DNA of 26,616 bases from an uncultured bacterium (GTDB lineage Bacteria; Patescibacteriota; Minisyncoccia; Phycocordibacterales; JAACPR01): NCBI GenBank assembly GCA_966677695.1, contig CBKWTF010000001.1, positions 1-26,616 of the forward strand, given 5' to 3'. Below are positions 1 to 15,400 of this stretch, piece after piece. Each line of letters begins with the position of its first letter. Within the stretch, counting starts at the first letter, position 1. The notes below the pieces were generated by a model. That model was not told the DNA's origin and did not search any database. It was given only the letters and a program-made list of their open reading frames with translations. The position numbers and the translations under genes are program-made.

Positions 1-3000
1 GTGGCAGGAACCGCGCGCATCACCGGCGCTTCGGTCTTTGACTCGACACTTTCCGCGTCGGGTGCGGTGACGTTCTCCTCATCGCTCGGAGTGACCGGAC
101 ACGCGACCCTTGCAACGGCATCATCCACCAGCCTCACCGTTTCCGGAAACTCATATCTCGGCACGGTGCAGAGCGGAACGTGGAACGGAAGTACGATCTC
201 CTCGACGTATCTGGACAGCTCGCTTATTCTCTCGAGCGAGATTGATTCCTCGTCGGAGTTGGCGGGAATAGTGAGCAATGAGACGGGATCGGGATCTCTC
301 GTCTTCGGAACATCTCCGACCTTTACCACGAACGCGAACTTCTTCGGCGACACGATTTCTGACTTCACCGGTACGGGACTCGTGCTTTCCGGATCAACGC
401 TGACGGTCTCGACGTCGTCGCTTGGCATCACGAGCTCGCAGTGGACGACGAGCGGATCAGACGTCTACTACTCTGCAGGTAAGGTGAGCGTAGGAACGAC
501 GACTCCCGCTACGGGTGCGCAGGTGAGCATATACGGAAATTCCTCGATCGGTCTGCATGTAACCAGCGGGTCGGGAAGCGGAAACCTGTATGGTGTCTAT
601 GCGGTGGCACCGTATGCGGCTGAAGGAATTTCGACAGGCGTATATGGCGAGGGTGCCGACGTCGGAATTTCCGGCTACAGTGAGTTCGGCAACGGAGTTT
701 ACGGAGGAAGCGACAACGCGGCTGGAGTTTCTGGTTCTGGACTGTACGGTGTGTCCGGTAGCTCAAACAATGCGTCTGGCCGAGCGGGATATTTCAGTCA
801 GTCGAACGCAAGCGGCTACTCTCTCTATGCCACAGGAGGAATCAATTACATCCAGAACAGTCTCGGAATCGGAACTTCGACGCCCGCAGCAAAGCTGCAC
901 GTGGACGACGCGACGAACAGTACGCTGCGCGTGTCCTCGGGCTCGAGAAGAGTGTCGCTTTCTGCTGTCGCGGCAGATACCAACTACCTGTCATCGGTAG
1001 GTGCGTCGCTGCGCCTTCTCTCTTCTGACAACGACGTACAGGTTTGGTCAAACGGAACCGTACATACGTACTTCAATACATCAGGTCAGCTTCTTCTAGC
1101 GGGGACAAGCACCGCTGCATCGCCGGGAATTTCCACCTATGCATACAACACGTCAGGAATGTTTTTCCCGTCATCTGGCGTACTTGGCTTCTCGACGGCA
1201 TCGACCGAGCGGATGCGCATCGACTCGTCCGGCAACGTCGGAATCGGAACGACAACGCCGTCAAATAAGCTTGCTGTATCAAGCGATGGGCATACCGTTT
1301 TGAGCATAGACACGACCACGACCTCCAACTCAGCACGGCTTTACTTTACGGAGAAAGCCGCAGTAAAAAGTGCCATAATGAGTGCCGGTTCAGCCTTCGC
1401 GACGACCGACCGACAGAATGATCTTGAGCTGTTTTCGTATTCAGGGGATGTATCTTTTTGGCCGGGAGGTGCGCAGGCTGTTACCTTCAAGTCGGGCGGC
1501 AACGTCGGAATCGGAACGACAAGCCCTTCCAGCCTGCTACACGTGGTCGGCAGCGGACAGGTCCTAGCCGGATTCGAAAATTCTTCAACTGGTTCCGCGG
1601 TGGTTGAATTCAAAAATGTCGGGGGTGATTCATGGTCGTTGGGTACTTCTGGAGTTCTCGATTCAAACCCGAGTGTTTTTCATATCAATTACAACAGTAC
1701 AAGTTTTGCAGATTCAGACTTCGTGATTGATACTGCAGGCAACGTCGGAATCGGAACGACGACGCCGTCTGCGAAGCTTGATGTTGACGGTACGCTTATG
1801 GCTTCGGGGGCGGCCACGCTCAATGCCGGCTTGACCGTAAACGGGGGCAATATTTCAATTCCGAATACGGCATATAAGCTTCTCTTCAATAACCAGTCAT
1901 CGATCTGGGGCGGTACAAGCCTTGTGTTTGATGCGCTGGGGGGTTCGCACCAGTTCCGGAACAACTCGACGGAACTGATGAGGCTCACTTCGGCCGGCAA
2001 TCTCGGAATCGGAACGACAACTCCGGGATATGGGCTTACCGTAGCAGGAGACGCAAGCATAACAGGCGCGCTGCGCTTCGGCGGGAATGCGGGCACAAGC
2101 GGGTACATTCTCCAGACCACCGGCTCAAGTGCCCAGTGGGTCGCCACGTCGACGCTCGGCATCACGAGCTCGCAGTGGACGACGAGCGGTTCGAATATCT
2201 ATTACAATACTTCCGGAAACGTAGGCGTCGGAACAAGCTCTCCGGATGCGAAGCTTGCGGTATACGGCACGAGCGGTCTCGGAGGAACAGCGTTTCTGGT
2301 GAAGGGTGCTACTGGAATAGGGATATTCAACGGCACCGCCGGAGAAGGAAACGGCATCCTGATGACTGCAGGTAACGGAGGCGATTCAATTATGGGTACT
2401 GGCGGTGACGGAGGAAGCATCGTGCTCAATCCTGGGGCTGCGGGCGCGGGAGGGTCTGCGGACGGCTCAGACGGCAACATTATTCTCGCCAACCTTCAGG
2501 GAAGCGTCGGTATCGGCACGACTACGCCTGCGGACAAGCTGGTTGTTGCCGGCGACATCAACCTAACGGGCGCACTCAAGTTCTCAGGATCCGCGGGCAC
2601 ATCGGGCCAGATCCTTCAGACTACGGGGACTACGGCACAGTGGGTCGCCACGTCGACGCTCGGATTCGTCGGGGCAAACAATGACTACGGTACACAGGGA
2701 AGCGTAGTATTTCTTGGCGCAAACGGTGCGTTGACCGAAAACAATACGAACTTCTTCTGGGATAACTCTTCGCAAATTTTTAGGATTGGATCGACAGGGA
2801 CATCATCTCAACTTCGCGTGATAAGCAACGGAGGAATTGGAAGTCAGATATTTGACATGACCAACAACGTCGATGCAAACATTCAGGTTCGAGTGACGGC
2901 CTCGGGCGCGGGGGACAAGTACGGTATGATCACCTCGACCACGGGAACCGATATCGTTATTGGTCCAAACACGACTGAAAGAATGCGAATCACCAATGGT

Positions 3001-6000
3001 GGAAACGTCGGAATAGGTACGGATGCTCCGGGAAAGCTCCTAGACGTAAACGGAGACGTGAGGATCCGGGGCGACAACGCGACCCTTAACTTCTACCGGT
3101 CATCGTCGCCGACCGACATCGCGTATCTGCAGTATGACAATGCGAGCTCGACTTTCAATATTGCGGCGAACAACAAGAGCATCCGCTTCCTGAACGGAAT
3201 CGGGTTCACGGAGACCCTCGAGATCGACAGTGAGGGAAAGTTCGGTCTTAACCTGGATGCAACATCGTTAGGTGTGATGTTCGGATCGAAGGCGAACAGC
3301 GACGCTCGAATGGCCGGCTTGTTCAGGGCCAACAGCGCTACGCAGTCCGCCTCGATATTCGGGGTCCAGAACCATGACGGGTCGTCAAGTTACCTGACCG
3401 TTGATGCTGATGGAGATGTCGGTGTCGGCACGTCTACTCCGGACGTCAGGTTCCAGGTGTCTGGTGGCAGCATCAAGCTGGACAATAACCAGAAGCTCGT
3501 CTGGAGGAATGCTGCGGGAAGTGCGAACCAGAACGTCCTGCATCTGGATAGCGCAGACAACACCGTCCTTACGTCCGGAACCGGTGCCGTCGCCCTGTAT
3601 GACGGATCTGCGGCTCACCGGCTGGACGTGTATAACGGCACAACGGTAGCGAACCGTATCAACTCAAACGGAGCCTCCTATATCAACGGAGGAGACTTTG
3701 TTGTCGGAGGAACCTCAAGCCTCGGGCGCTTTACGGTATACGGTACGTCGACGTCCCAGATAAGCCAGGTCATTCGAATGGCAACAAGCCAGACCGCGGA
3801 TTCGTTTGTTGTCGAGGATTCCGCGGGTAACGACCTGCTCCGACACTGGACCGCATCCGGACTCGGTTCCGTGCTCAGGGTCATGTCCACCTCGACCAAG
3901 TACTTCCAGATGGAGTCATATGCTGCTGACAATAACTATTTCTCCGCGGCAGGCGCACCGTTTACCATCAGAACAAGCGGCGGTTCTTACAACCTGAACT
4001 TCTTTACGAATACGACAGACCAGCGCATGGCGATATCAGCATCGACCGGACACGTAATTGTCGGTTCGACCGCGACAAACGGAAATGCGCGAGTGCATTC
4101 CATCTGGAACGGTGGTCCGCAGCTGAGGTTGGGCGTCGACACATCAAATACCGCATACATGGACGCGACTGTCGGGTCGACGGGCGTCGCTACGTTTGAC
4201 GCGTCTGGAAGCGCTGCGGCATTCTCATTCAGTGACAACGTCGGGATCGGTACTACCAGTCCGTCCGCCAGGCTTGCCGTCACCGGCGCGTCCGGCTCGA
4301 CGGACAATGTTTTCGTCATAGCGTCATCGACGAACGCCATTCTGGCCTCGGTTTCGCCTGTCGGTATGATTACTGCCAACCAGAGTAACCTGGCTGTGAA
4401 AATCGGAGGTTTGCCGGGCTCCGAAGGCTCGTATTCAGGCGTATGGCTCGGCGGAGGAACGCCGTCCGCATCGAACTATGCCTTCCTGGGATCAACCCAG
4501 CAGACGTTCTTCAATGCACCCAATGCAGGAATTGCAGACATAGAGTTCAGGATCGGAAACACTACGGAATTCACCGTAGGTGCTAACGGTGCAGCCGTGG
4601 GCTTGTCAGGGAACACGGCCCCGACGTATCCGTTCCAGGTCAAGACCGCATCCAGCGACTTCATAGTAAATTCCTCGGGAAACGTTGGAATCGGAACGAC
4701 GACGCCGAGCGAGATGCTTACCGTAGCGGGCAACATCAACCTGACCGGGGCACTCAAGACCAATGGTAACGCCGGCACTTCGGGCTACCTGCTCCAGACT
4801 ACCGGCACCGGCGTGCAGTGGGTCGCCACGTCGACGCTCGGCATCGGAGGGGGTGGATCGAGTCAGTGGACGACGAGCGGAAGCGACATCTACTACAATG
4901 ATGGCGCTGCTTCGGTTGGAACAACGACTCCGTTTGCAAACTCGAAACTGACCGTTAGAAGTTCCACGTCCGGAACTTCGGACGCATATGCGGTTCGCGG
5001 ATATTCGTACCTCAGTGACGGAAGCTTTAGCGCCAGTTCCTACGGAGGATATTTCGTGGCTTCAGGTGCGGACCATGACCTGAGCGTGGGAGTGTACGGA
5101 CAGGGAGACTGGACTTCGAACTATGCATATGGAGTGTGGGGTAATTCGACGGCAGTTGGAGTATACGGATCGGGAGATGAAATAGGAGTTCAGGGAACCG
5201 GACTTACCGGAGTGTACGGAACGTCCAACAGCGCTTCGGGGAAAGCGGGGCACTTCAGTCAGTCAAACGCTGCCGGATATTCGCTGTATGCGTCAGGAGG
5301 AGTCAACTATATCCAGAACAATCTCGGTTTGGGAGTCACGTCTGCCAGCGCTCGGCTGCACGCCGTCTCGACTACGGAACAGTTGCGCGTCGGATACGAT
5401 ACGTCAAACTATCTAGCTATTACGGTTGCGTCGGATGGAAACGTGAACTTCACTGCCGTCGGTACTGATCCAGAATACGCGTTCATGAACAATATTGGTA
5501 TCAATACCGCATCGCCCGCAACGGAGCTCGATATCTACGGCTCAAACGGGGGTGCAGCAAACATATATCTGACGCGAAACGACTCAACAACCGTTACCGA
5601 TGACGAGTTGGGCGGAATCGCGTTCGGATCATCTGACGGACCGAGCCCGAATGCTGCAGCGATTAATGCGTACGCTTCGGAAAACTATTCATCCTCGAAC
5701 GCGGGATCGTACCTCGTGTTCCGTACCAGTCAGACCGGTGGAGACACCATCAGCGAGCGCATGAGGATTACTGATGCTGGAAGCGTCGGAATCGGAACGA
5801 CTTCTCCTCAGCGAAGGCTCCACGTGCGAACGACAGCAGACGAGGCGCCGGTTCGGTTCGAGGACTCAAGCGGATACTGTGAGATTAACCCTATATCAAC
5901 AACCTGGTCGTGTACGTCTGACGAGCGGCTAAAGGATAACATCCGGGACCTTGCATCGGTACAAATCGGATCAAGTACGGACGAGACCATTCTCGAGCGG

Positions 6001-7002
6001 GTGTCGAACCTTCGACCAGTAGCCTTTACCTGGAGAAGCGACGATGACCAGGTCGACCGAACAGGACTTATCGCACAGGAGGTCGAGAAGATTTTCCCTG
6101 ATCTTGTGAATACTGACGAGCGAGGATACAAGTCCGTATCATACGGAGGATTTACCGTGTACCTTATCGGCGCCCTGAAGGAACTGGTTGCTCGGCTGGA
6201 GAATGTTGAGAACGCGATTGCCAGCCTTTCGGGCGGCATGGTCTCAAACGTTCAGGCCGGGGTAGCGGGCATCTTCTCTCGTTTGACCGTGGGTTCTGCG
6301 GAAAAACCGACAGGAATCACGCTGTATGACGAAGAGACCGGAGAGCCGTACTGTCTCAAGGTCCGAAACGGGGAGACAACCACGACGCCGGGAGAGTGTA
6401 CAGTCGCTGACCTGACACCTGACAATACGCCGGTGCCACCGGTACAGACTGATCCTGGAACCACTACGCCTGACACGAACGGAGGAACAGGTGACGGAGG
6501 CGGGCAGCCGGCCGGAGATCAGGGAACGGCCGGTGACGCTGCAGGAGACGGGTCTGGTTCAGGAGACGACGCTTCGGCAGGAACCTCGGGCGGGGGAACG
6601 ACCGGAGACGGCTCGACCGGAGACGATGCTGGCTCATCGTCCGGAGGGGGAGCGGGATCAGGAACGACGGGTACGGGAACCGGTGATGCGACCGGAACAG
6701 GGGGCGGCACGACATCCGGCACGGGTAACGCTGCAGGAAGCGATCCTACTTCAGGAAGCGGGTCTTCGACGGGAACTTCAGCCGCAGGAACGGCCGGAAG
6801 CGGCGTCTCTCAGTCCGGAACCTCTGGGGACGGATCGACCGGAGGCGATGCTGGCTCATCGTCCGGAGAGGGAGCGGGGGACGGTTCGGGCGCTTCGACC
6901 GGGTCGGCCTCGGGCAGTGACGGAGGGGGATCTGGCGGAGATGCTGGCAGCTCCGGTTCGGGAACGTCGGGAGACTCTTCGGGCTCAGTAGGAGGGGTAT
7001 AG
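1..7002 (+). CDS. Giant phage-tail-fibre-like surface adhesin (5'-truncated, >=2333 aa) with G[IV]GT shaft repeats and a peptidase S74 intramolecular chaperone
   Basis: The ORF is open from base 1 to TAG at 7000-7002 and the first residues are already repeat-like, so the true start lies upstream. It has 12 xG[IV]GT motifs (e.g. GNVGIGTTTPS at 1231, 1738, 4678), GVYG-rich segments, QWVATSTLG linkers, and SDERLK...GLIAQEVEKIFPDLV...coiled coil near the C-terminus. Confidence 0.88.
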   Translation: MAGTARITGASVFDSTLSASGAVTFSSSLGVTGHATLATASSTSLTVSGNSYLGTVQSGTWNGSTISSTYLDSSLILSSEIDSSSELAGIVSNETGSGSLVFGTSPTFTTNANFFGDTISDFTGTGLVLSGSTLTVSTSSLGITSSQWTTSGSDVYYSAGKVSVGTTTPATGAQVSIYGNSSIGLHVTSGSGSGNLYGVYAVAPYAAEGISTGVYGEGADVGISGYSEFGNGVYGGSDNAAGVSGSGLYGVSGSSNNASGRAGYFSQSNASGYSLYATGGINYIQNSLGIGTSTPAAKLHVDDATNSTLRVSSGSRRVSLSAVAADTNYLSSVGASLRLLSSDNDVQVWSNGTVHTYFNTSGQLLLAGTSTAASPGISTYAYNTSGMFFPSSGVLGFSTASTERMRIDSSGNVGIGTTTPSNKLAVSSDGHTVLSIDTTTTSNSARLYFTEKAAVKSAIMSAGSAFATTDRQNDLELFSYSGDVSFWPGGAQAVTFKSGGNVGIGTTSPSSLLHVVGSGQVLAGFENSSTGSAVVEFKNVGGDSWSLGTSGVLDSNPSVFHINYNSTSFADSDFVIDTAGNVGIGTTTPSAKLDVDGTLMASGAATLNAGLTVNGGNISIPNTAYKLLFNNQSSIWGGTSLVFDALGGSHQFRNNSTELMRLTSAGNLGIGTTTPGYGLTVAGDASITGALRFGGNAGTSGYILQTTGSSAQWVATSTLGITSSQWTTSGSNIYYNTSGNVGVGTSSPDAKLAVYGTSGLGGTAFLVKGATGIGIFNGTAGEGNGILMTAGNGGDSIMGTGGDGGSIVLNPGAAGAGGSADGSDGNIILANLQGSVGIGTTTPADKLVVAGDINLTGALKFSGSAGTSGQILQTTGTTAQWVATSTLGFVGANNDYGTQGSVVFLGANGALTENNTNFFWDNSSQIFRIGSTGTSSQLRVISNGGIGSQIFDMTNNVDANIQVRVTASGAGDKYGMITSTTGTDIVIGPNTTERMRITNGGNVGIGTDAPGKLLDVNGDVRIRGDNATLNFYRSSSPTDIAYLQYDNASSTFNIAANNKSIRFLNGIGFTETLEIDSEGKFGLNLDATSLGVMFGSKANSDARMAGLFRANSATQSASIFGVQNHDGSSSYLTVDADGDVGVGTSTPDVRFQVSGGSIKLDNNQKLVWRNAAGSANQNVLHLDSADNTVLTSGTGAVALYDGSAAHRLDVYNGTTVANRINSNGASYINGGDFVVGGTSSLGRFTVYGTSTSQISQVIRMATSQTADSFVVEDSAGNDLLRHWTASGLGSVLRVMSTSTKYFQMESYAADNNYFSAAGAPFTIRTSGGSYNLNFFTNTTDQRMAISASTGHVIVGSTATNGNARVHSIWNGGPQLRLGVDTSNTAYMDATVGSTGVATFDASGSAAAFSFSDNVGIGTTSPSARLAVTGASGSTDNVFVIASSTNAILASVSPVGMITANQSNLAVKIGGLPGSEGSYSGVWLGGGTPSASNYAFLGSTQQTFFNAPNAGIADIEFRIGNTTEFTVGANGAAVGLSGNTAPTYPFQVKTASSDFIVNSSGNVGIGTTTPSEMLTVAGNINLTGALKTNGNAGTSGYLLQTTGTGVQWVATSTLGIGGGGSSQWTTSGSDIYYNDGAASVGTTTPFANSKLTVRSSTSGTSDAYAVRGYSYLSDGSFSASSYGGYFVASGADHDLSVGVYGQGDWTSNYAYGVWGNSTAVGVYGSGDEIGVQGTGLTGVYGTSNSASGKAGHFSQSNAAGYSLYASGGVNYIQNNLGLGVTSASARLHAVSTTEQLRVGYDTSNYLAITVASDGNVNFTAVGTDPEYAFMNNIGINTASPATELDIYGSNGGAANIYLTRNDSTTVTDDELGGIAFGSSDGPSPNAAAINAYASENYSSSNAGSYLVFRTSQTGGDTISERMRITDAGSVGIGTTSPQRRLHVRTTADEAPVRFEDSSGYCEINPISTTWSCTSDERLKDNIRDLASVQIGSSTDETILERVSNLRPVAFTWRSDDDQVDRTGLIAQEVEKIFPDLVNTDERGYKSVSYGGFTVYLIGALKELVARLENVENAIASLSGGMVSNVQAGVAGIFSRLTVGSAEKPTGITLYDEETGEPYCLKVRNGETTTTPGECTVADLTPDNTPVPPVQTDPGTTTPDTNGGTGDGGGQPAGDQGTAGDAAGDGSGSGDDASAGTSGGGTTGDGSTGDDAGSSSGGGAGSGTTGTGTGDATGTGGGTTSGTGNAAGSDPTSGSGSSTGTSAAGTAGSGVSQSGTSGDGSTGGDAGSSSGEGAGDGSGASTGSASGSDGGGSGGDAGSSGSGTSGDSSGSVGGV
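1231..1760 (+). repeat. Three identical 23-nt boxes GGCAACGTCGGAATCGGAACGAC (1231, 1498, 1738) encoding GNVGIGT, with near-copies at 1996, 4678 and 5779
   Basis: Direct sequence comparison; identity includes third codon positions. Confidence 0.93.
2134..4841 (+). repeat. Three identical 26-nt boxes CAGTGGGTCGCCACGTCGACGCTCGG (2134-2159, 2638-2663, 4816-4841) encoding QWVATSTLG
   Basis: Direct sequence comparison. Each copy ends a ~42-aa module L[TV]VAG[DN]xx[IL]TGAL[RK]xxGxAGTSGxxLQTTGxxxQWVATSTLG. Confidence 0.95.
5917..6228 (+). other. Peptidase S74 / intramolecular chaperone autoprocessing domain
   Basis: TWSCT-SDERLKDNI...LRPVAFTW...TGLIAQEVEKIFPDLV...YKSVSY...LIGALKELVARLENVE: the S-D-x-R-x-K cleavage motif, the GxIAQEV motif and a terminal coiled coil typical of the family. 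Confidence 0.9.
6481..6999 (+). repeat. Low-complexity Gly/Ser/Thr/Asp C-terminal tail with an internal 50-nt duplication (6607-6656 vs 6829-6878, 47/50 identical)
   Basis: The translation is dominated by G, S, T, D and A; DGSTG[DG]DAGSSSG[GE]GAG occurs twice. Confidence 0.9.
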
Positions 7003-7008
7003 CCCGGA

Positions 7009-7028
7009 CTATACATATATATGTATAG
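7009..7028. promoter_or_regulatory. Perfect 20-bp AT-rich palindrome CTATACATATATATGTATAG (possible operator or weak hairpin)
   Basis: Self-reverse-complementary; 6 bp after the fibre stop codon and ~37 bp upstream of the proposed rpsL -35. Function is inferred. Confidence 0.45.
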
Positions 7029-7065
7029 CATAGGGGATAGGCACATTCTGAAATCCGGTCGGCAC

Positions 7066-7094
7066 TTGCAAAAAATCCCTATTTGTATTACAGT
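7066..7094 (+). promoter_or_regulatory. Putative sigma70 promoter for rpsL-rpsG
   Basis: TTGCAA (7066-7071), 17 bp, TACAGT (7089-7094), 25 bp before the rpsL ATG. Confidence 0.5.
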
Positions 7095-7119
7095 AGCACT
7101 CACAACACCCATATTAGAT

Positions 7120-7536
7120 ATGCCAACAGTAAATCAGCTCGTAAAGCGAAATCGAAAGAAGACAGTCCGCAAGTCAAAGGCGGTTGCCCTTACTCGTGGA
7201 TTCAATACTCTTAAGAACCGACCATCTTTTTACAAGTCTCCGTTCAAGCGAGGCGTATGTACCAAGGTGACCACCAAGACACCTAAGAAGCCTAACTCAG
7301 CAATCCGAAAGATTGCCCGAGTACGACTTTCAAACGGATTTGAGGTTACTGCCTACATTCCAGGAATGGGACACAACCTGCAGGAGCACTCGATGGTGCT
7401 TCTACGAGGAGGACGAGTAAAGGACGTAGGAATCCGATACACCGTCGTTCGAGGTATGCTTGACTCTGAGGGAGTGCAGAAGCGAATGAAGGGACGATCT
7501 CGATACGGAGCTAAGCGACCTAAGGCAGCTAAATAA
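7120..7536 (+). CDS. rpsL: 30S ribosomal protein S12 (138 aa)
   Basis: MPTVNQLV...[45 protein letters not shown]...RGGRVKD...SRYGAKRPK. The true start is ATG 7120, inside the track ORF 7021-7536. Confidence 0.99.
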
Positions 7537-7567
7537 GCCATACAGTAACTAACTTTTATTACATACC

Positions 7568-8038
7568 ATGCGAAGACCAGTAAAAAACCGAAATATTCCA
7601 AAGCCTGACACCAAGTACGGTTCCGAGAAGGTGGCCAAGTTCATCAACCACATCATGGAGCGAGGAAAGAAGGACATCGCCCGAAAGATCGTGTACCAGG
7701 CGTTTGAGGAAATCAAGGCCAAGGCGCAGGTAGAGAATCCGCTAGAGATTTTCGATGCAGCCCTTAAGAATGCCGCTCCGGTGATGGAGGTTCGATCACG
7801 ACGAGTGGGAGGAGCGAACTACCAGGTTCCTCGAGAGGTTCGACCAGAGCGACGAAACTTCCTTGCCATGACCTGGATGATCCAGGCTGCGCAGGCAAAA
7901 TCAGGAACTCCTATGTACAAGCGACTTGCCGAGGAGCTGATGCTCGCAAGCAAGAACGAGGGTTCTGCAGTAAAGAAGAAGGAGGATACGCACCGAATGG
8001 CCGAGGCCAACAAGGCGTTTGCGCACTTCGCGTGGTAA
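7568..8038 (+). CDS. rpsG: 30S ribosomal protein S7 (156 aa)
   Basis: PD.KYGS..VAKFIN.IM..GKK..A..IVY...EVRSRRVGGANYQVP.EV...RR...A..W...KKKEDTHRMAEANKAFAHFAW. Confidence 0.99.
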   Translation: MRRPVKNRNIPKPDTKYGSEKVAKFINHIMERGKKDIARKIVYQAFEEIKAKAQVENPLEIFDAALKNAAPVMEVRSRRVGGANYQVPREVRPERRNFLAMTWMIQAAQAKSGTPMYKRLAEELMLASKNEGSAVKKKEDTHRMAEANKAFAHFAW

Positions 8039-8053
8039 TACTCTCATCCCAAT

Positions 8054-8087
8054 AAGAAAAGGCGCGCCGTACGGCGCGCCTTTTCTT
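8054..8087. terminator. Perfect 34-bp palindrome, probable bidirectional intrinsic terminator after rpsG
   Basis: AAGAAAAGGCGCGCCGTACGGCGCGCCTTTTCTT is self-complementary, has a GC-rich stem, is followed by a T-rich tract and lies 15 bp after the rpsG stop. Confidence 0.8.
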
Positions 8088-8117
8088 TATATCTACTTGA
8101 TTTAGGGCTGAATCGGC

Positions 8118-8145
8118 TTTACTTATCTTATATTTTCAGTACAAT
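8118..8145 (+). promoter_or_regulatory. Putative dedicated fusA promoter
   Basis: TTTACT (8118-8123), 16 bp, TACAAT (8140-8145), downstream of the rpsG terminator. Confidence 0.5.
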
Positions 8146-8208
8146 GAGCCTACCTTTTCCAGGGGGATTTTTATTTATCTACGTTATTAAATTACACATA
8201 CATATATT

Positions 8209-10353
8209 ATGAGTCGAGAGTATCCACTAAGCCGCGTTCGAAACTTCGGTATCATTGCCCATATCGACGCCGGAAAGACGACAACTTCGGAGCGAATTCT
8301 GTTCTATACCGGAGTGTCTCACAAGATCGGAGAGGTGCATGAGGGAGCTGCCATCATGGACTGGATGGAGCAGGAGCAGGAGCGAGGTATTACCATTACG
8401 TCAGCTGCCACTACCTGTTTCTGGACACCTACATACGCGCCAGGAAACACTGAGCTGAAGCACCAGTTCAACATTATCGATACCCCGGGTCACGTGGACT
8501 TCACCGTGGAGGTGGAGCGATCACTCAAGGTGCTCGACGGAGGAGTGGTGGTGTTCGACGGAGTGGCCGGAGTGGAGCCGCAGTCAGAAACCGTGTGGCG
8601 ACAGGCTGACAAGTACAAGGTTCCACGAATCTGCTTCATCAACAAGCTTGATCGAACCGGAGCGTCATTTGAGCGATCATACAAGTCGATAATCGACCGA
8701 CTCGCAAAGCGAGCGGTGCGAGCCCAGATCCCGATGGGAGAGGAGTCGGACCTGCACGGAGTGATCGACCTTCTTAAGATGAAGGCGTATACCTTCGAGG
8801 GAGACATGGGAAACAAGGTGGTTGAGCAGGAGATCCCTGAGAAGTACAAGGAGGATGCCGAGCTGTACCGAGCCGAGCTCGTTGAGCGAATCGTGGAGAA
8901 CGACGAGGCACTTATGAACAAGTTCTTCGCCGGAGAGGAGATCGCCCTTGAAGACCTCAAGAAGACGCTGCGAAAGGCGGTGATCGAGAACAAGCTCGTT
9001 CCGGTATTCACCGGATCGGCGCTTAAGAACACCGGAGTTCAGCTGGTGCTGGATGCCGTGGTTGACTACCTTCCAGCCCCTACGGACATTCCTGCGATTA
9101 AGGGAAACGATGTCGAGACTGGAGAGGAGATGGAGCGACAGTCTGATGACAAGGAGCCTCTTGCCGCGCTCGCCTTCAAGCTTCAGACTGATCCGTACGT
9201 TGGACAGCTGACCTACATCCGAGTGTATTCGGGAGTGCTCGAGGCCGGATCATACGTTCTGAACACTACGACCGGAGAGAAGGAGCGAGTAGGACGAATT
9301 CTGCGAATGCATGCCAACGACCGAGAGGAGGTGAAGACCGTGTATGCCGGAGAGATTGCTGCGGCGGTAGGACTTAAGAACACGCACACGTCTGATACGC
9401 TGTGTGATCCTGAGCATCCAATCGAGCTGCACCGAATCGAGTTCGCCGAGCCGGTGATCGCCCTTCGAATCGAGCCGAAGACCAAGGCCGACCAGGAGAA
9501 GATGGGAATGGCGCTCAAGAAGCTCTCGGAGGAGGATCCTACGTTCAAGGTTTCAACCGACGAGGAGACCCTCGAGACTATTATTGCGGGTATGGGAGAG
9601 CTTCACCTTGAGATTCTCGTTGATCGAATGAAGCGAGAGTTCAACGTCGAGGCGAACGTTGGTAAGCCGCAGGTGGCATACCGAGAGACCATCTCTGCCG
9701 ATGCGAACGCGGACTACAAGTACGTGAAGCAGTCAGGAGGTAAGGGACAGTACGGACACGTGAAGATCAACATCAAGCCGATGGATCATAACGTTGATCT
9801 CGAGAACCTTCCGAAGAACGTGAAGCGATCAGAGGGACTTGAGTTCATCAACAACATCAAGGGAGGAGCGATTCCCGGAGAGTTCATCGCGCCGATCGAG
9901 AAGGGAATCAAGGAGGCGATGCAGCGAGGAGTCGTTGCCGGATACAAGATGGTGGACGTGTCAGTCGAGCTGTATGACGGATCGTTCCACGAGGTGGACT
10001 CGTCCGAGATCGCCTTCAAGCTTGCTGCGCTCTACGCGTTCCAGGAGGCTGCCGCCAAGGCCCGACCCGTGCTGCTTGAGCCGGTCATGAAGGTTGAGGT
10101 AACCGTACCCGAGAAGTTCCTCGGAGACATCACCGGAAACCTGTCTTCAAAGCGAGGACAGATCGAGGGAACTCAGGACCGAGGAAACGGAATCGTGGCC
10201 ATCGGTGCAAAGGTGCCTCTGTCTGAGATGTTCGGATACACGACGTCGCTTCGATCAATGACCGAGGGGCGAGGGGCTATGACCATGGAGTTCAGCAACT
10301 ACGAGACCGTGCCGCAGAACGTGGCCGAGGAGATCAAGAAGACTCGAGGATAA
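8209..10353 (+). CDS. fusA: Elongation factor G (714 aa)
   Basis: [79 protein letters not shown] and [10 protein letters not shown] motifs. Confidence 0.99.
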
Positions 10354-10426
10354 TCAGAGACGGAAATATACATAGCCATGACGGGCGGCCGCCACCAACG
10401 TTCCCCCCCGCCTTGCGTTGGGCCTG

Positions 10427-10435
10427 TGATATACT
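10427..10435 (+). promoter_or_regulatory. Putative extended -10 promoter for the small membrane protein gene
   Basis: TG-A-TATACT, 23 bp upstream of ATG 10459. Confidence 0.4.
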
Positions 10436-10458
10436 TTAGGCATAACCGAAGCAATAGC

Positions 10459-10731
10459 ATGAACGTACAGTTTGACGAAGATAATTTCTCAGGACCCCAG
10501 AACTTCGGCGGAATGCCTCAGCAGCCGCAAAGCAGTTCCGGTTCGGGCATGATCGGCTGGATGGTGAGGTCCGGACTGGCAAAGGATACGAATTCCGCAA
10601 ACGTCATCCTTACGATACTGGCCCTAATCGTGTTCGGAATCTCGATCTACTTCTTTATGTTCGGATTCTCCAAGCCGACCTTCTCCGGACCCCAGCAGCC
10701 GCCGCAGGAGATACCGGGGGTTACTCTATAA
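10459..10731 (+). CDS. Small single-pass membrane protein, hypothetical (90 aa)
   Basis: MNVQFDEDNF... start preferred over 10378. Amphipathic MIGWMVRSGLAKD, hydrophobic NVILTILALIVFGISIYFFMFGF, Pro/Gln-rich ends; has its own promoter-like and terminator-like signals. Confidence 0.8.
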   Translation: MNVQFDEDNFSGPQNFGGMPQQPQSSSGSGMIGWMVRSGLAKDTNSANVILTILALIVFGISIYFFMFGFSKPTFSGPQQPPQEIPGVTL

Positions 10732-11966: not shown

Positions 11967-12030
11967 CTAGGATTTGCTTAGGATTTCGTTTCTTATGATT
12001 TGGTTCGATACGGTCAGTGGGATCAATTCA

Positions 12031-12084
12031 AACGAACTGAACTCACATGTTCGAACGAACTGACATCTAAACGAAACGAACTAG
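12031..12084 (+). repeat. Three phased direct repeats AACGAACT(GA/AG) at 12031, 12054 and 12075
   Basis: Read directly; spacing is 23 and 21 bp. They are preceded by TAGGATTT/TAGGATTT/TATGATTT at 11968, 11979 and 11994. Confidence 0.65.
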
Positions 12085-12088
12085 CTAG

Positions 12089-12124
12089 GAAAACCGTCGG
12101 ACCCATTTGGGTCCGACGGTTTTC
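12089..12124. terminator. Intrinsic terminator for rplJL
   Basis: GAAAACCGTCGGACCC-ATTT-GGGTCCGACGGTTTTC, a perfect 16-bp stem followed by GTTTTG. Confidence 0.85.
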
Positions 12125-12268
12125 GTTTTGCCGATACCTCGAAACAAGGGGGAGGTTACGAATTTGCCGCAAAACACGCCGAGGAAATGTGCTGAGAAAC
12201 GGGGCGTTGCAGTACCTTCTTGAAGGCCCTTTGAACATGAGAATTTTCACTCAAAAACACGTGTCAAG

Positions 12269-12277
12269 TTATCCACA
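12269..12277 (+). promoter_or_regulatory. Consensus DnaA box TTATCCACA
   Basis: Exact match to the TTATNCACA consensus; single copy, in an AT-rich intergenic stretch upstream of the giant gene promoter. Confidence 0.6.
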
Positions 12278-12288
12278 AAATTTCGGTA

Positions 12289-12323
12289 TATAACTTGTTA
12301 TAAAAAACAAATTGCTGCATAAT
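12289..12323 (+). promoter_or_regulatory. Putative promoter of the giant gene with an overlapping inverted-repeat operator
   Basis: TTGTTA (12295-12300), 17 bp, CATAAT (12318-12323). TATAAC-TT-GTTATA (12289-12302) overlaps the -35. Confidence 0.45.
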
Positions 12324-12338
12324 CAACGTATTGGTATG

Positions 12339-12373
12339 GGGGCTGAAACGCGTAATCGCGTTTCAGCCCCTTT
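12339..12373 (+). terminator. Strong leader hairpin (terminator/attenuator-like or 5' stabiliser) before the giant gene
   Basis: GGGGCTGAAACGCG-TAAT-CGCGTTTCAGCCCC, a perfect 14-bp stem followed by TTTGTCATTT, ending 42 bp before ATG 12413. Confidence 0.6.
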
Positions 12374-12412
12374 GTCATTTATCAAATCAACAACATTACA
12401 AACAAAACCATT

Positions 12413-15400
12413 ATGAAAAAATTACTAATCATCGGATCATCACTTGTGGCGCTGACCATCTTCGCGTTGGGCGGAAGTATTCCTGACTCAAGAAGTTCCG
12501 CATCGGTCACGGACCTGATACCCAAAAGAACCGAACCGGTATCGGACGGAATTCCGACGGAAATCCTGGCACAAAACGAGTCACCCCAAGAAGTCTCCGC
12601 ACAAACGGAGACATTCGTCGTTAATGGGGGGGCAACGACAAAGTCAGCAAGTTCCGACGAACTGGCTTTTGCGGGCTCACGTGATGTTGTTGATCACACT
12701 AACTCTTCGTCCGACTCTTCGGACTTCGTCGCTGTGGCGACGCCTGAGTCACGCGACTCGGGAGGCTCGTCTCTCAGATCTGCAGAGACCGCTGAACTTT
12801 CTGCATCTGCTCCGACACGGGTGCCGTCATACGGTCCGAACGGTACTCACTGGCCAAGCAACATTCCGACCCCGTTCATGTACGACACTACTGTGCCGAA
12901 CATCATCGAGGTTGAGCCGAACTGGACGGATCTTTCTAACGCAATCAAGAGCGTGACCGATCAGCAGGCAAACGAGGGAACGCTGATTCTCATCAAGTCC
13001 GGAACCGTAGAGAACCCGACGGTCATGAGGGGAAACGGAAACGGGTCAGGCTCTGACCCTGTGCTTGCCGAGATTGGTTCCGAAATCAGAAACAGCGAAT
13101 TTCCAAATCGGCCTCGAACGAAGCGAATCACCGTAGCGCCTTCGAACGGATACGGAACGCTGCGATGGGAGAACGGAGTGCACATCCGAAGAGTAAAGGG
13201 AGTGGCCTTTGCCGGAATTATCGCTGATCAGGGAATCAAGTCACGAGGAAACACGCAGTCTGCCTTTGCGTGGATTCTTGCGGAAAGCGGACAGACCGGT
13301 TTCTACGGTCATAAGGATCAGGATACCTACGGCATGGAAATCGTGGAGTATGTTGTTCCTGAGGCCCAGGCAAAAAGCGACGATACCGCGGACGTCTATT
13401 CTGTTGACGGAGTGGTTGAGGACTTTGACGTTGTGGGAAGCTACTTCGCTCCGCGGTTCTGGCTGTACAGCGACTGTACTCCGCAGGACTGTCCGCACAC
13501 CGATACCTTCCAGTACGCTACCGGAGGAGGGGGAAGTTACGGCGACATGTCTCTGAGCGACAGCGTATTTTTTGCATCAAACAACAGTGTAATTCAGACC
13601 GGTAACGTTATCGGTCTCGACATCGACCACTCGTTCATCGTTGGAGGAGACGAGTCGTTCAAGAGATATCCGATTACGGGAGGAAGTGACGTCTCGCGAG
13701 AGGGTAACTTCTCAGCCTTCAACGGATCCGGTCGAGGGTTCAATCTGACAAACTCATTCGTATTCGGAGAGATCAAGCTCAATAACCGAGACGCGTCGAG
13801 GGTGTGGAGTAACGTTTCAAATACCAAGATCGCCCAGCCAAGCGGAAAGTATGACGGAGGACTTAACGACCCGCTTTCCGGAGACTGGACATACGAGTCC
13901 GGCATGACGATGGCGAGTGCCGGCATTCCGGCAAAGCCGACGGAGGAGTACCTGCTTACAATCTGGGGCAAGGACATTACGCCTCGCACGGCTGCACCCG
14001 AGTTTAGCCCGAGCGGAACGAGCTTCAACGACTCAGTCACCGTCTCGCTTTCGAGCAACACGGCTGGCGCGGCCATATACTACACAACCAACGGAAGTAC
14101 CCCGACGACCTCTTCGACACGATATGCCGGACCATTTACGCTTTCTTCCTCGGCTACGGTAAAGGCAATCGCGGTATCGGCTGGTCTTGATAACAGCTTT
14201 GTGCAGTCAAAGACCTACACGATCGTACAGCCGGGTCTGCCGGTCATTACAAGGCAGCCTGCTGCCCAGTCGGCACCGGTCGGATCAAGTGCGACCTTCA
14301 CCGTCGAGGCTACCGGAAATCCAGCAGTCAGCGGATATCAGTGGAAGAAGAACGGCGCAAGCATCGCGGGCGCAACCAGCGCAAGCTACACCACGCCTGC
14401 CCTGACTTCTGCCGACAGCGGTTCCACATATACTGTCGTAGTGACGAACGCGCAGGGAAGCGTCGAGTCACAGGGCGCAGCGCTTCTTGTCGCTGACATG
14501 ACGTCTGACAGCTCATATCAGGAGCGATCAATCAGCTCGCTGTCAGGAACATTCACCTATGAGTTCAGCGTGACTCCGCTTGCGGCGAACATGAACGCCG
14601 TAACCGGACTTACGGGCAAGTCATCAGCCGTAAGCGACTATGGCGACTTCTCGATGATGATCCGAATGTACGACGGTCGATTCGACGCGCGAAACGGAGG
14701 CGCATACGGGTACAATGGCGCCCAGGAGGTTCGCTTCGAGGTAGGACGAACATACCAGGTCAAGTTCGTGGTCGACAGCTCGGCAAAGGAATATGACGTA
14801 TTTGTTGACGGCAAGCTCATCGGAGACAATTTTGATTTCCGAAATACAACCTATACAACGTTTAACAAGATCGCGTATCGAGCCGAAGTCGGATCGCATA
14901 CGATCGGACTGACAGGATCAACGGGAGGAGGGGAGGATACCCAGGCTCCGGTCGTCAATGCCGGACCGGACCAGACCATCACGCTTCCGACGAACAGCGT
15001 GACGCTCAACGCTGACGTCTCAGACAATCAGCCGGTCACGAATCTTGCAAACGTCTGGACGCGACAGAGCGGACCGGCCGCCGTTTCGTTCGGCAACGAG
15101 AACTCGATCGACACGACCGCGACATTTACGACCGCAGGAACATACGTGCTCAGGCTGACCTCAAACGACGGAGACAACACCGGATACGACGAGATTACGA
15201 TCGTCGTACGTCCGCAGGAGGGAGTGAACCAGGCTCCGGTCGTCAGCGCGGGTTCTGACGTTTCAATTACCACCGGAGGAACCGCGACACTCGACGGAAC
15301 CGTTACGGATGACGGACTTCCAGCCGGTTCAACGGTCGCCCAGACATGGAGCCGTGTGGAGGGTCCTGGAACGGTGACATTTGCCAATCCCTCCGCTCAG

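What the first reader, a model, noticed from the sequence alone, without database searches (positions are those of the whole stretch)
1..7002. Chromosomal giant trimeric phage-fibre-like adhesin next to rpsL: a candidate host-recognition fibre
Seen: >=2333 aa of G[IV]GT-punctuated beta-rich shaft ending in an S74 chaperone, 117 bp from rpsL, with no phage structural, integrase or lysis genes nearby. Established: S74 chaperones fold and then self-cleave from trimeric beta-helical fibres and tailspikes (endosialidases, T5 L-fibre), and predatory Bdellovibrio use chromosomal S74-containing mosaic adhesive trimer fibres for prey recognition. Inference: in an epibiotic CPR cell this is a domesticated fibre that recognises host surface receptors, the CPR analogue of those prey-recognition fibres.
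Basis: partly seen in the sequence, partly recalled or inferred. Interest (0 to 1): 0.72.

Follow-up and report, generated by a model that had tools for sequence, protein, structure and literature searches.

The report
Secreted trimeric S74 fibre adhesin, CPR
A tiny-genome (CPR/Parcubacteria-type) bacterium encodes a real, about 2,543-residue exported fibre protein built like the prey-recognition fibres of Bdellovibrio and the tail fibres of phages; it is the last gene of a pilus-like surface operon, so it is a good but untested candidate for how such cells grip their hosts.

Summary
Window 1-7002 is one open frame of 2,333 codons cut by the contig end. It carries 13 G[IVL]G[TV] loop motifs (1.9 expected) and a Peptidase_S74 chaperone with an intact SDxxxK dyad at S1973/K1978, 117 bp before rpsL.

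I recovered the upstream contig. G000:C16 overlaps the window start by 68 nt (67/68 identical, unique, in frame). It supplies a signal peptide and an N-terminal domain weakly matching NCBIfam Bdello_MAT_N. Full length is about 2,543 aa.

There are no phage genes upstream. Instead there are four surface genes resembling the recently described CPR Pam pilus operon. This cassette of about 11.6 kb is missing from the same slot in five near relatives. It recurs, with a fibre, in other CPR genera.

The last 305 residues before the tail model as an intertwined homotrimer (ipSAE 0.94, best control 0.01). The closest solved relatives are Bdellovibrio MAT fibres, the MyRF chaperone domain and phage T5/K1F fibres.

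S74 matches occur in 90 of 401 sampled CPR genomes. NCBI already names such proteins "tail fiber domain-containing", and a 2026 preprint notes in one sentence a tail-fibre-like gene beside pam operons.

Verdict: a new CPR member of the MAT-like fibre family. The architecture is well supported. Host recognition is inferred.

The parts
1..7002 (+). C-terminal 2,333 codons plus the stop of the fibre gene. The first 210 codons lie on contig G000:C16 (L009:10305-10934).
   Evidence: The open frame is shown. The 68-nt overlap between the C16 end and the C1 start is 67/68 identical, unique in the assembly and in frame. Synteny with relatives (LactB-L28-M50-HTH_17 ... rpsL) supports the join.
406..984 (+). 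Shaft module (aa 136-328), duplicated at aa 1608-1814 (nt 4822-5442) with 45-55% identity.
   Evidence: Window-against-self BLASTP. At the DNA level, boxes D6/D7 are 82-88% identical.
1231..5830 (+). Shaft with the recurring GNVGIGTTxPxxKL loop motif that separates mosaic modules. The motif G positions are aa 289, 414, 503, 583, 669, 742, 837, 1004, 1141, 1415, 1563, 1776 and 1930.
   Evidence: Motif positions and shuffle test are, and DNA repeat families D1, D2 and D4. The same 'ERMRI..GNVGIGT..P...LHV' stretch aligns to the solved MAT fibres 8ond and 8oml.
5368..5916 (+). Distal tip that would be exposed after cleavage (aa 1790-1972), ending in the Cys pair C1960/C1971 (GYCEINP..TW.CT).
   Evidence: This stretch lies inside the modelled trimer, whose contacts run along its whole length. 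The motif is conserved in P0003, P0005, P0007, P0019 and P0032.
5917..5934 (+). Predicted autocleavage and catalytic motif S1973-D-E-R-L-K1978.
   Evidence: The Ser and the Lys are invariant in the 85-sequence alignment A1. The SDxxxK dyad is defined in PMC10769870.
5917..6225 (+). S74 intramolecular chaperone domain (aa 1973-2075), comprising the Pfam core 1973-2036 and a C-terminal helix.
   Evidence: The PF13884 hit is. The model shows a helix at 273-304 of the fragment with pLDDT above 94. Foldseek finds 7dc3, 4uw8, 3gw6 and 3gud.
6226..6405 (+). Post-chaperone Cys-pair module (aa 2076-2135; ITLYDEETGEPYC...GEC).
   Evidence: The same module lies 120-150 residues after the catalytic Ser in 30 of 168 S74-bearing relatives. 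It has no Pfam family.
6406..6999 (+). Acidic Gly/Ser/Thr-rich low-complexity tail (aa 2136-2333: 68 G, 37 S, 30 T, 22 D+E, 0 K+R).
   Evidence: Composition is and direct repeat D8. Close relatives carry similar tails.
7003..7119 (.). Intergenic spacer of 117 bp before rpsL.
   Evidence: Sequence read.
7120..7536 (+). rpsL, the start of the chromosomal rpsL-rpsG-fusA block that fixes the fibre in the backbone.
   Evidence: Pfam hits. The same block follows the HTH_17 gene in five relatives.

Best explanation
The gene encodes a Sec-exported, homotrimeric fibre adhesin of the MAT-like ('tail fiber domain-containing') family. It is about 2,543 aa long once the upstream contig is joined.

Shown or directly supported:
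- a 32-aa signal peptide;
- a conserved beta-rich N-terminal base domain of about 100-130 aa;
- a mosaic shaft of about 1,750 aa in which modules are separated by GNVGIGTTxP loop motifs homologous to the beta-helix repeats of solved Bdellovibrio MAT fibres;
- a distal tip with one Cys pair;
- a C-terminal S74 intramolecular chaperone with an intact Ser/Lys dyad, followed by a conserved Cys-pair module and an acidic Gly/Ser tail.

Inferred mechanism:
1. After export, the three chains are registered and folded from the C-terminal chaperone.
2. The chaperone cuts itself off before S1973 (window numbering). The 361-residue C-terminal piece leaves.
3. A mature fibre of about 2,150 residues stays on the cell through its N-terminal base domain, with the freshly exposed tip pointing outwards to bind a surface polymer of another cell.
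4. Scaling from Bd3182 (782 residues, about 550 A) gives roughly 150 nm, which is only an extrapolation.

The gene is the last of a five-gene, same-strand cassette: two PamT-like or pilin-like proteins, a membrane-anchored Ig-fold chaperone-like protein, and an FnIII protein with a C-terminal membrane helix. The cassette resembles the CPR Pam pilus operon and is inserted between a conserved HTH_17 membrane protein gene and rpsL. The cassette products are the most likely docking or assembly partners of the fibre base.
For: Reality of the gene and motifs.

S74 domain: PF13884 E 1.5e-13. S1973 and K1978 are invariant in 85 relatives.

Trimer: complex prediction on aa 1776-2080 in three copies gave ipSAE 0.94 against a best control of 0.01. 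Partner pLDDT was at least 89 and the three runs agreed in at least 97% of contacts. The mark was reached by 20 of 30 proteins solved as pairs of one chain and by 1 of 23 solved as single chains.

Homology to MAT fibres: phmmer against the PDB gave 8ond (Bd2133) 4.3e-7, 8oml 8.6e-7, 8ojn 6.9e-4 and 8on4 8.8e-4. Foldseek gave 7dc3 at 6.6e-5, then 8ond, 8oml, 4uw8, 8onf, 8onc and 3gw6.

N-terminus: the signal peptide and base domain lie on C16. NF053851 Bdello_MAT_N matches at E 1.5e-7. The domain model has pLDDT 89 and matches the N-termini of S74, collar, YadA and collagen fibre proteins.

Cellular rather than viral:
- The four upstream genes have no PHROG hit.
- The backbone genes are syntenic in relatives.
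- All 54 relatives with an N-terminal hydrophobic leader carry the long post-chaperone extension, whereas 64 of 101 leaderless ones end right after the chaperone.

Operon link:
- The cassette is collinear with L015 (A 52%, B 41%, C 39%, D 28%, fibre N-terminus 45% identity).
- C250 hits NF058579 PamT at E 1.3e-8.
- B/C-like genes sit directly upstream of a fibre with this N-terminal domain in 8 further genomes of 7 genera.
- The Pam preprint notes a co-localised tail fibre-like gene (PMC13278184).

Spread: S74 matches occur in 90 of 401 CPR genomes, mostly in open frames of 1,000-8,800 aa.
Against: No experiment or expression data exist for this organism.

- The C16-C1 join rests on a 68-nt overlap with one mismatch plus synteny, not on reads.
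- The trimer pass may partly reflect the model's memory of solved S74 and MAT trimers. It covers only 305 of about 2,500 residues.
- The Bdello_MAT_N hit (31.3 bits) is below its curated cut-off of 60. The PamT hit (34.5 bits) is far below its equivalog cut-off of 240.
- No NCBIfam model matched the A, B or D proteins, so 'Pam-like' rests on one weak hit, paralogy, topology and neighbourhood.
- Nothing identifies a ligand. The tip has no recognised lectin or enzyme domain.
- Five near relatives lack the cassette at this site, so it is not essential for the lineage.
Confidence: 0.72

Rival explanations
1. The fibre is not a free-standing adhesin. It is the distal adhesin or a docked component of a Pam-type (membrane-anchored chaperone, donor-strand) pilus encoded by the four genes in front of it. 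The organelle would then be a composite of a pilus stalk and a phage-type trimeric tip.
For: - The five genes lie on one strand with gaps of 6-62 nt.
- The cassette is collinear in L015.
- B/C-like genes are directly upstream of such fibres in 7 further genera.
- There are PamT-like hits.
- The B and D proteins have the topology described for PamC/D and PamR.
- The preprint remarks on a co-localised tail fibre-like gene.
Against: - No PamA/B/E-type pilin model matched.
- A trimeric base is hard to fit onto a single-file donor-strand filament.
- The N-terminal domain models as a complete fold on its own (pLDDT about 97 over residues 10-100), not as a strand-deficient pilin.
- Many S74 fibres in CPR are not next to B-like genes (G057, G218, G245).
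Confidence: 0.25
2. It is a prophage or phage-remnant tail fibre gene that happens to lie next to rpsL. It would work only as part of a virion or a tailocin.
For: The shaft and C-terminus hit PHROG tail-fibre families (phrog_9942 at 5.7e-30, phrog_18345, phrog_5668, phrog_1980). S74 chaperones are classic phage fibre parts.
Against: - A cleavable signal peptide is found on C16.
- No capsid, portal, terminase, tail tube, baseplate, integrase or lysis gene lies within 10 kb upstream or 19 kb downstream.
- The neighbours are exported surface proteins conserved with the fibre in other CPR genomes.
- No tRNA or att-like feature is present.
- A second such fibre in the genome is also in a cellular context.
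Confidence: 0.04
3. It is mainly an enzyme (a tailspike-like depolymerase that cuts a host or matrix polysaccharide) rather than a binding fibre.
For: S74 chaperones were first found on endosialidase tailspikes. The best monomer match of the MAT tip Bd3182 is the P22 tailspike.
Against: No glycosidase, lyase or pectin-lyase-fold family matched any part of the 2,333 residues at E below 1. The modules align to non-enzymatic MAT shaft repeats. The modelled tip is a slim intertwined trimer, not a wide right-handed beta-helix.
Confidence: 0.08

Closest known systems
Bdellovibrio bacteriovorus MAT (mosaic adhesive trimer) fibres, S74 subgroup, e.g. Bd3182 (Caulton et al. 2024, PMC10769870; PDB 8ojn/8onb/8onc, 8ond, 8oml)
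   Same: Shared features are a signal peptide and a conserved beta-rich N-terminal domain (weak NF053851 hit). The intertwined trimeric shaft has ERMRI..G-N-V-G-I-G-T..P...L loop motifs that align to the solved MAT fibres. The modules are mosaic. The C-terminal S74 chaperone has the SDxxxK dyad. The gene is chromosomal, in a cell that lives on other bacteria.
   Different: - It is about 2.5 times longer (about 2,543 aa against about 1,000 aa).
- The host cell is a CPR bacterium presumed to lack an outer membrane.
- 361 residues follow the cleavage Ser (140 in Bd3182), including a Cys-pair module and an acidic Gly/Ser tail.
- It is encoded in a pilus-like operon.
- The N-terminal domain scores below the family's curated cut-off.
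- No localisation or binding data exist.
Phage fibres and spikes with S74 intramolecular chaperones (K1F endosialidase 3gw6, T5 L-shaped fibre pb1 4uw8, GA-1 3gud) and the eukaryotic MyRF ICA domain (7dc3)
   Same: The chaperone fold and the Ser/Lys dyad are the same. The chaperone sits C-terminal to a trimeric beta-structure. The protein also matches PHROG tail-fibre families.
   Different: It has a signal peptide and no virion genes around it. The chaperone is not the last domain. The leaderless relatives end right after the chaperone in 64 of 101 cases, whereas all 54 with a leader carry an extension.
Pam pilus operon of CPR bacteria (Troman et al. 2026 preprint, PMC13278184)
   Same: The four genes upstream have the described parts list by topology: small exported Ig-type proteins (one hits PamT), an exported protein with a C-terminal membrane helix as in PamC/D, and an FnIII protein with a C-terminal membrane helix as in PamR. 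The preprint reports a tail fibre-like gene consistently near pam operons.
   Different: Only PamT is detected, far below its cut-off. No PamA/B/E match was found. The preprint finds Pam mainly in Saccharimonadia and Microgenomatia, whereas this genome is Parcubacteria/Paceibacterota-like. The preprint does not analyse the fibre.
WxL / WxL-interacting-protein surface loci of Bacillota
   Same: The B protein gives a near-threshold PF06030 WxLIP_PGBD hit (25.5 bits, cut-off 27.3) and has the same leader plus C-terminal helix layout. Language-model neighbours of A and B include WxL and WxLIP clusters.
   Different: No WxL motif family reaches threshold, and those loci are not known to carry S74 fibres. 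This is a lead only.

Membership tests
Peptidase_S74 / intramolecular chaperone auto-processing domain (PF13884) | HMM match above the curated cut-off | tested here: met
   51.2 bits against a cut-off of 22, E 1.5e-13, aa 1973-2036; 58.3 bits in the genome search.
Peptidase_S74 / intramolecular chaperone auto-processing domain (PF13884) | Catalytic Ser-Lys dyad in an SDxxxK motif at the domain start | tested here: met
   The motif is S1973-DERL-K1978. Both residues are invariant in 85 aligned relatives. The motif is as defined in PMC10769870.
Peptidase_S74 / intramolecular chaperone auto-processing domain (PF13884) | Sits C-terminal to a trimeric beta-structure and trimerises with it | tested here: met
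   Three-copy model: ipSAE 0.94 against a best control of 0.01, pLDDT 90, contacts from residue 11 to 301 of the fragment. This is a model only and may lean on solved relatives.
Peptidase_S74 / intramolecular chaperone auto-processing domain (PF13884) | Autoproteolytic release of the chaperone | not testable with these tools
   This needs expression of wild type and S1973A, or proteomics.
MAT fibre family (Caulton et al. 2024) | Signal peptide followed by the conserved beta-rich N-terminal domain of about 130 aa | tested here: inconclusive
   The signal peptide and a conserved domain are present on C16. NF053851 Bdello_MAT_N matches at E 1.5e-7 but with 31.3 bits, under the cut-off of 60, and over 67 of 162 positions. 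The result also depends on the C16-C1 join.
MAT fibre family (Caulton et al. 2024) | Shaft homologous to MAT beta-helix repeats with capping-loop motif V-G-G/N-pi-x-x-P-x-x-x-L | tested here: met
   phmmer against the PDB: 8ond 4.3e-7, 8oml 8.6e-7, aligned on ERMRI..GNVGIGT..P...LHV. The motif here is V-G-I-G-T-T-x-P-x-x-K-L, one residue longer than the published consensus.
MAT fibre family (Caulton et al. 2024) | Trimerisation along the fibre | tested here: met
   Tested only for the last 305 residues before the tail. The remaining shaft was not modelled.
MAT fibre family (Caulton et al. 2024) | Surface display and binding of another cell's surface | not testable with these tools
   No culture, proteome or imaging exists for this organism.
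Phage tail fibre (virion part) | Encoded among phage structural genes | tested here: not met
   No structural, integrase or lysis gene lies 10 kb upstream or 19 kb downstream. The flanks are syntenic chromosomal genes in relatives.
Phage tail fibre (virion part) | Sequence homology to phage fibre families | tested here: met
   phrog_9942 at 5.7e-30, phrog_18345 at 1.2e-25, phrog_5668 at 2.2e-17. This shows shared ancestry, not virion membership.
CPR Pam pilus operon (PMC13278184) | Pam pilins, PapD-like chaperone with C-terminal helix, PamT, and FnIII PamR with C-terminal helix in one operon | tested here: inconclusive
   PamT model: E 1.3e-8 and 7.3e-11, but 34-42 bits against a cut-off of 240. 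The topologies of B and D fit. No model matched A, B or D.
Trimeric autotransporter adhesin | C-terminal outer-membrane beta-barrel anchor | tested here: not met
   No YadA_anchor or other barrel family is present; the C-terminus is the S74 domain plus an acidic tail. Only the paralogue on C38 carries YadA_head repeats.

The most novel reading that the evidence does not exclude
In many CPR bacteria a phage-type, self-cleaving trimeric fibre is a built-in part of the Pam-type pilus system: it is exported, folded by its S74 chaperone, and then mounted on or beside a donor-strand pilus by the membrane-anchored chaperone-like and FnIII proteins encoded just upstream. This would be a composite attachment organelle, with exchangeable fibre modules setting host range.
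Probability: 0.25. Interest if true: 0.75.

Novelty: new member of a known kind. Interest (0 to 1): 0.5.

Why it matters
How CPR/Patescibacteria cells find and hold their hosts is largely open. Only type IV pili, and very recently Pam pili, have experimental support.

This locus gives a concrete, testable candidate: an exported trimeric fibre of perhaps 150 nm, built from mosaic modules, with a tip that is unmasked by self-cleavage. The family is common. S74 matches occur in 90 of 401 sampled CPR genomes, and the N-terminal base domain is joined to many different tips. The fibre is repeatedly encoded next to pilus-like genes.

If the fibre sets host specificity, its modular tips could be used to predict host range from metagenomes. 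Its orthologues in cultivable Saccharimonadia could be knocked out directly.

The result also shows that the MAT design of Bdellovibrio is not a peculiarity of predators with two membranes.

Tried and rejected
1. A general link between S74 fibres and type IV pilus genes. The paralogue on C38 and its orthologues P0003 and P0007 follow pilC. Across 36 well-assembled CPR genomes, however, only 4 of about 47 S74 frames lie within 15 kb of a pilC gene, which is about the chance rate. I rejected it as a rule and kept it as a note for the paralogue.

2. The search for related loci on genome contigs with alignment A1 failed because no stretch was conserved enough, so I have no named-organism survey of the tip.

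3. I looked for the missing N-terminus by homology to P0003/P0007. That search found only the C38 paralogue. The true upstream contig came from synteny instead.

4. I first assumed that the missing N-terminus was an HTH_17 plus membrane-helix anchor, as in P0019. In this genome the HTH_17 protein is a separate gene of 391 aa and the fibre has its own signal peptide, so I dropped that idea.

5. Pfam, NCBIfam and PHROGs gave nothing for the post-chaperone module, the acidic tail or the mid-shaft modules.

6. The PDB fold search of the N-terminal domain found no match at E of 0.001 or better.

7. Full-text searches found no paper that analyses S74 fibres in CPR bacteria. The nearest is one sentence in PMC13278184.

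8. Self-BLAST of the whole protein returned only the identity hit. I replaced it with a sliding-window search.
Full report
**Observation**

The window is the whole of contig C1 of a 657,675-bp, 91-contig genome. That genome is estimated to be 96% complete and 1.2% contaminated.

Positions 1-7002 on the plus strand are one frame without a stop. It is open at the contig start and encodes 2,333 residues. The motif G[IVL]G[TV] occurs 13 times against 1.9 +/- 1.3 in 2,000 shuffles. The longer form G[NSD]xGxG[TV]xx[PA] occurs 10 times against none expected.

Pfam finds a single family, Peptidase_S74, at residues 1973-2036 (E 1.5e-13, 51.2 bits, cut-off 22). rpsL starts at 7120, so the gap is 117 bp. 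rpsG, fusA, rplJ, rplL and a 4,639-residue exported protein follow. There are no tRNA genes.

**Organism**

The EF-G of the window is 85-91% identical to proteins that the databases name Candidatus Parcubacteria. It is 75-78% identical to proteins named Paceibacterota, Nomurabacteria and 'Patescibacteria group'. The genome is therefore a CPR genome of the Parcubacteria/Paceibacterota type. Its lifestyle is inferred from the phylum, not shown.

**Recovering the start**

Near relatives have the gene order LactB, L28, M50 peptidase, an HTH_17 membrane protein, then rpsL, rpsG, fusA. In the window's own genome the first four of these genes lie on contig C16.

The last 68 nt of C16 match the first 68 nt of C1 at 67 of 68 positions. 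This is the only such overlap in the assembly, and it is in frame. On C16 the fibre frame begins with MTFDFFKKITVGLLAFFIAFSPLAPVAHVAYA, a signal peptide, followed by DINPEINYQGKL....

With this join the protein has 210 + 2,333 = 2,543 residues. The join rests on the overlap and on synteny. Reads were not available.

**N-terminal domain**

The roughly 100-130 residues after the signal peptide are conserved in more than 130 proteins. Almost all the named ones come from CPR lineages. Their C-terminal parts differ widely: S74, YadA head, LVIVD, lectin-like, FGE-sulfatase, beta-helix and CBM.

The domain models with mean pLDDT 89. It has no PDB match at E of 0.001 or better. It matches the N-termini of predicted fibre proteins with S74, collar, collagen, fibrinogen or YadA parts in several phyla. 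NCBIfam's Bdello_MAT_N model matches at E 1.5e-7 but below its curated cut-off (31.3 against 60 bits). I read this as distant homology to the MAT base domain, not as membership.

**Shaft**

The best sequence matches among solved structures are four Bdellovibrio MAT fibre fragments: 8ond at 4.3e-7, 8oml at 8.6e-7, 8ojn and 8on4. They align on the ERMRI..GNVGIGT..P...LHV stretch. The MAT paper describes this element as a capping loop that is also found in MyRF.

The shaft is mosaic. One module of about 190 residues is duplicated at 45-55% identity, and shorter junction boxes recur. PHROG tail-fibre families also match, which shows common ancestry with phage fibres.

**Chaperone and what follows it**

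The motif S1973-D-E-R-L-K1978 is the SDxxxK dyad. Both residues are invariant in 85 aligned relatives.

Three copies of residues 1776-2080 were modelled as a complex:
- Score 0.94 against a best control of 0.01.
- Partner pLDDT at least 89.
- The three runs agreed in at least 97% of contacts.
- Contacts run along the whole fragment.
- The mark was reached by 20 of 30 proteins solved as pairs of one chain and by 1 of 23 solved as single chains.

Related trimers have been solved, so part of this pass may be memory. It shows the likeness, not the binding itself.

The monomer model (pLDDT 78) finds the MyRF ICA domain (6.6e-5), then the MAT fibres, the T5 L-shaped fibre with its chaperone, and the K1F and GA-1 chaperones.

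After the chaperone helix come two further elements. One is a small module with a Cys pair, which recurs 120-150 residues after the catalytic Ser in 30 of 168 S74-bearing relatives. The other is a 198-residue tail with 68 Gly, 37 Ser, 30 Thr, 22 acidic and no basic residues.

Among relatives that start with Met and carry the S74 motif, all 54 with an N-terminal hydrophobic leader have more than 130 residues after the Ser. By contrast, 64 of 101 without a leader end within 130 residues. The extension thus goes with export. Its role is unknown.

**Neighbourhood**

Between the HTH_17 gene and the fibre, C16 carries four same-strand genes separated by 6-62 nt:
- A, 216 aa, exported.
- B, 332 aa, exported, with a C-terminal membrane helix. 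Its PF06030 WxLIP_PGBD hit is just under the cut-off.
- C, 250 aa, exported, a paralogue of A (E 4e-17). It matches NCBIfam CPR_pilus_PamT at 1.3e-8, far below the equivalog cut-off.
- D, 475 aa, with FnIII-type domains and a C-terminal membrane helix.

None of the four has a PHROG match.

This parts list fits, by topology, the pam operon described in a 2026 preprint. That operon has small Ig-type pilins, PapD-like chaperones with a C-terminal helix, the tip pilin PamT and the FnIII anchor PamR. The authors state in one sentence that a tail fibre-like gene is consistently co-localised with it (PMC13278184).

The cassette is collinear with one in another CPR genome, L015, where two S74 fibres follow it. 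B-like genes occur in 171 of 401 sampled CPR genomes. In nine loci that I fetched, B- and often C-like genes lie directly upstream of a fibre with the same N-terminal domain. These loci come from eight genomes of seven genera. In three other genomes, S74 and B lie on one contig but far apart. Only the best 150 of 293 B matches were listed, so these counts are lower bounds. None of these claims rests on the unpublished genome G154.

**Insertion**

Five near relatives have the HTH_17 gene directly before rpsL. The five-gene cassette of about 11.6 kb is therefore an insertion at this site.

A more distant relative (L003) has a different S74 fibre in the same slot. That fibre is fused to the HTH_17/membrane-helix N-terminus and is followed by LamG proteins. 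The site upstream of rpsL seems to accept surface-protein genes repeatedly.

**Spread and prior knowledge**

- S74 matches occur in 90 of 401 sampled genomes of the phylum (77 of 320 genera), mostly inside open frames of 1,000-8,840 residues.
- The C-terminal 386 residues have 71,363 cluster representatives at E of 0.001 or better, and 14,794 at 1e-10 or better.
- NCBI names such proteins 'tail fiber domain-containing protein' in Moraniibacteriota, Pacebacteria and others.
- The MAT paper lists relatives in Omnitrophica, Uabimicrobium and Micavibrio, but no CPR entry in the text held.
- I found no paper that analyses these fibres in CPR bacteria.

**Mechanism, and what is shown**

Shown by sequence or model:
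- an export signal, subject to the contig join;
- a conserved base domain;
- a MAT-like shaft;
- an intact S74 dyad;
- a predicted intertwined trimer;
- a cellular rather than viral context;
- a conserved operon with pilus-like genes.

Inferred:
- folding from the C-terminus;
- self-cleavage before S1973;
- release of the 361-residue piece;
- anchoring by the base domain to a product of the cassette;
- outward display of the tip;
- binding to a host-cell polymer.

The length of about 150 nm is an extrapolation from Bd3182.

**Verdict**

This is a real gene and an ordinary member, by design, of a family first characterised in Bdellovibrio and already auto-annotated across CPR genomes. What is added here:
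- the complete gene model;
- the export-linked post-chaperone extension;
- the recurrent coupling to a Pam-like operon.

Interest is moderate. The fibre is a strong, testable candidate for host attachment in a group where that question is open, but its kind is known.

Noticed in passing
G000:C38 (L010) 3-3695, minus strand: A second S74 fibre gene of at least 1,231 aa, cut at the contig end inside the chaperone. It has a signal peptide, a different Cys-containing N-terminal module and YadA_head repeats. It lies downstream of pilC, gatB and a sulfotransferase-like gene. Its orthologues P0003 and P0007 directly follow a full type IV pilus operon (pilM ... pilB, response regulator, pilT, pilC).
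   Followed up: partly
L009 (G000:C16) 6374-10242: Four-gene exported cassette in front of the fibre: A 216 aa; B 332 aa with a near-threshold WxLIP_PGBD hit and a C-terminal helix; C 250 aa, PamT-like; D 475 aa, FnIII with a C-terminal helix. This is probably a diverged Pam-type pilus operon in a Parcubacteria-like genome, outside the classes where the preprint found Pam most often.
   Followed up: partly
window 12000-26332 compared with L007, L011, L012: The slot after rplL is also variable. This genome has a 97-aa ORF and the 4,639-aa exported protein there. L011 has a 537-aa DUF285/Flg_new/PG_binding protein. L007 and L012 go straight to tuf and rpsJ. Both ends of the rpsL-rplL block therefore hold lineage-specific surface genes.
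   Followed up: partly
L009 4934-6109 and L007 7760-8872 (P0376); P0019 residues 1-130: A conserved gene for a protein with an N-terminal HTH_17-type domain followed by a membrane helix sits before rpsL in all relatives examined. In one genome (L003) this N-terminus is fused to a 2,547-aa S74 fibre. Why a DNA-binding-type fold sits at the cytoplasmic end of surface proteins is unexplained.
   Followed up: partly
window 405-471, 2139-2205, 4864-4896: Junction boxes around SSQWTTSGS are 82-88% identical at the DNA level, with an identical core of about 32 nt between the first two copies. This could support recombination between modules.
   Followed up: no
L003 15815-19623 and L014 12918-14124: Large LamG (Laminin_G_3) proteins directly follow fibre genes in two other CPR loci, and pilin-like N_methyl+LamG genes precede one of them. 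This may be another recurrent partner set for these fibres.
   Followed up: no
window 10378-10731: A 117-aa ORF between fusA and rplJ has no Pfam or PHROG match. Small ORFs of 84-93 aa occupy the same position in relatives.
   Followed up: no
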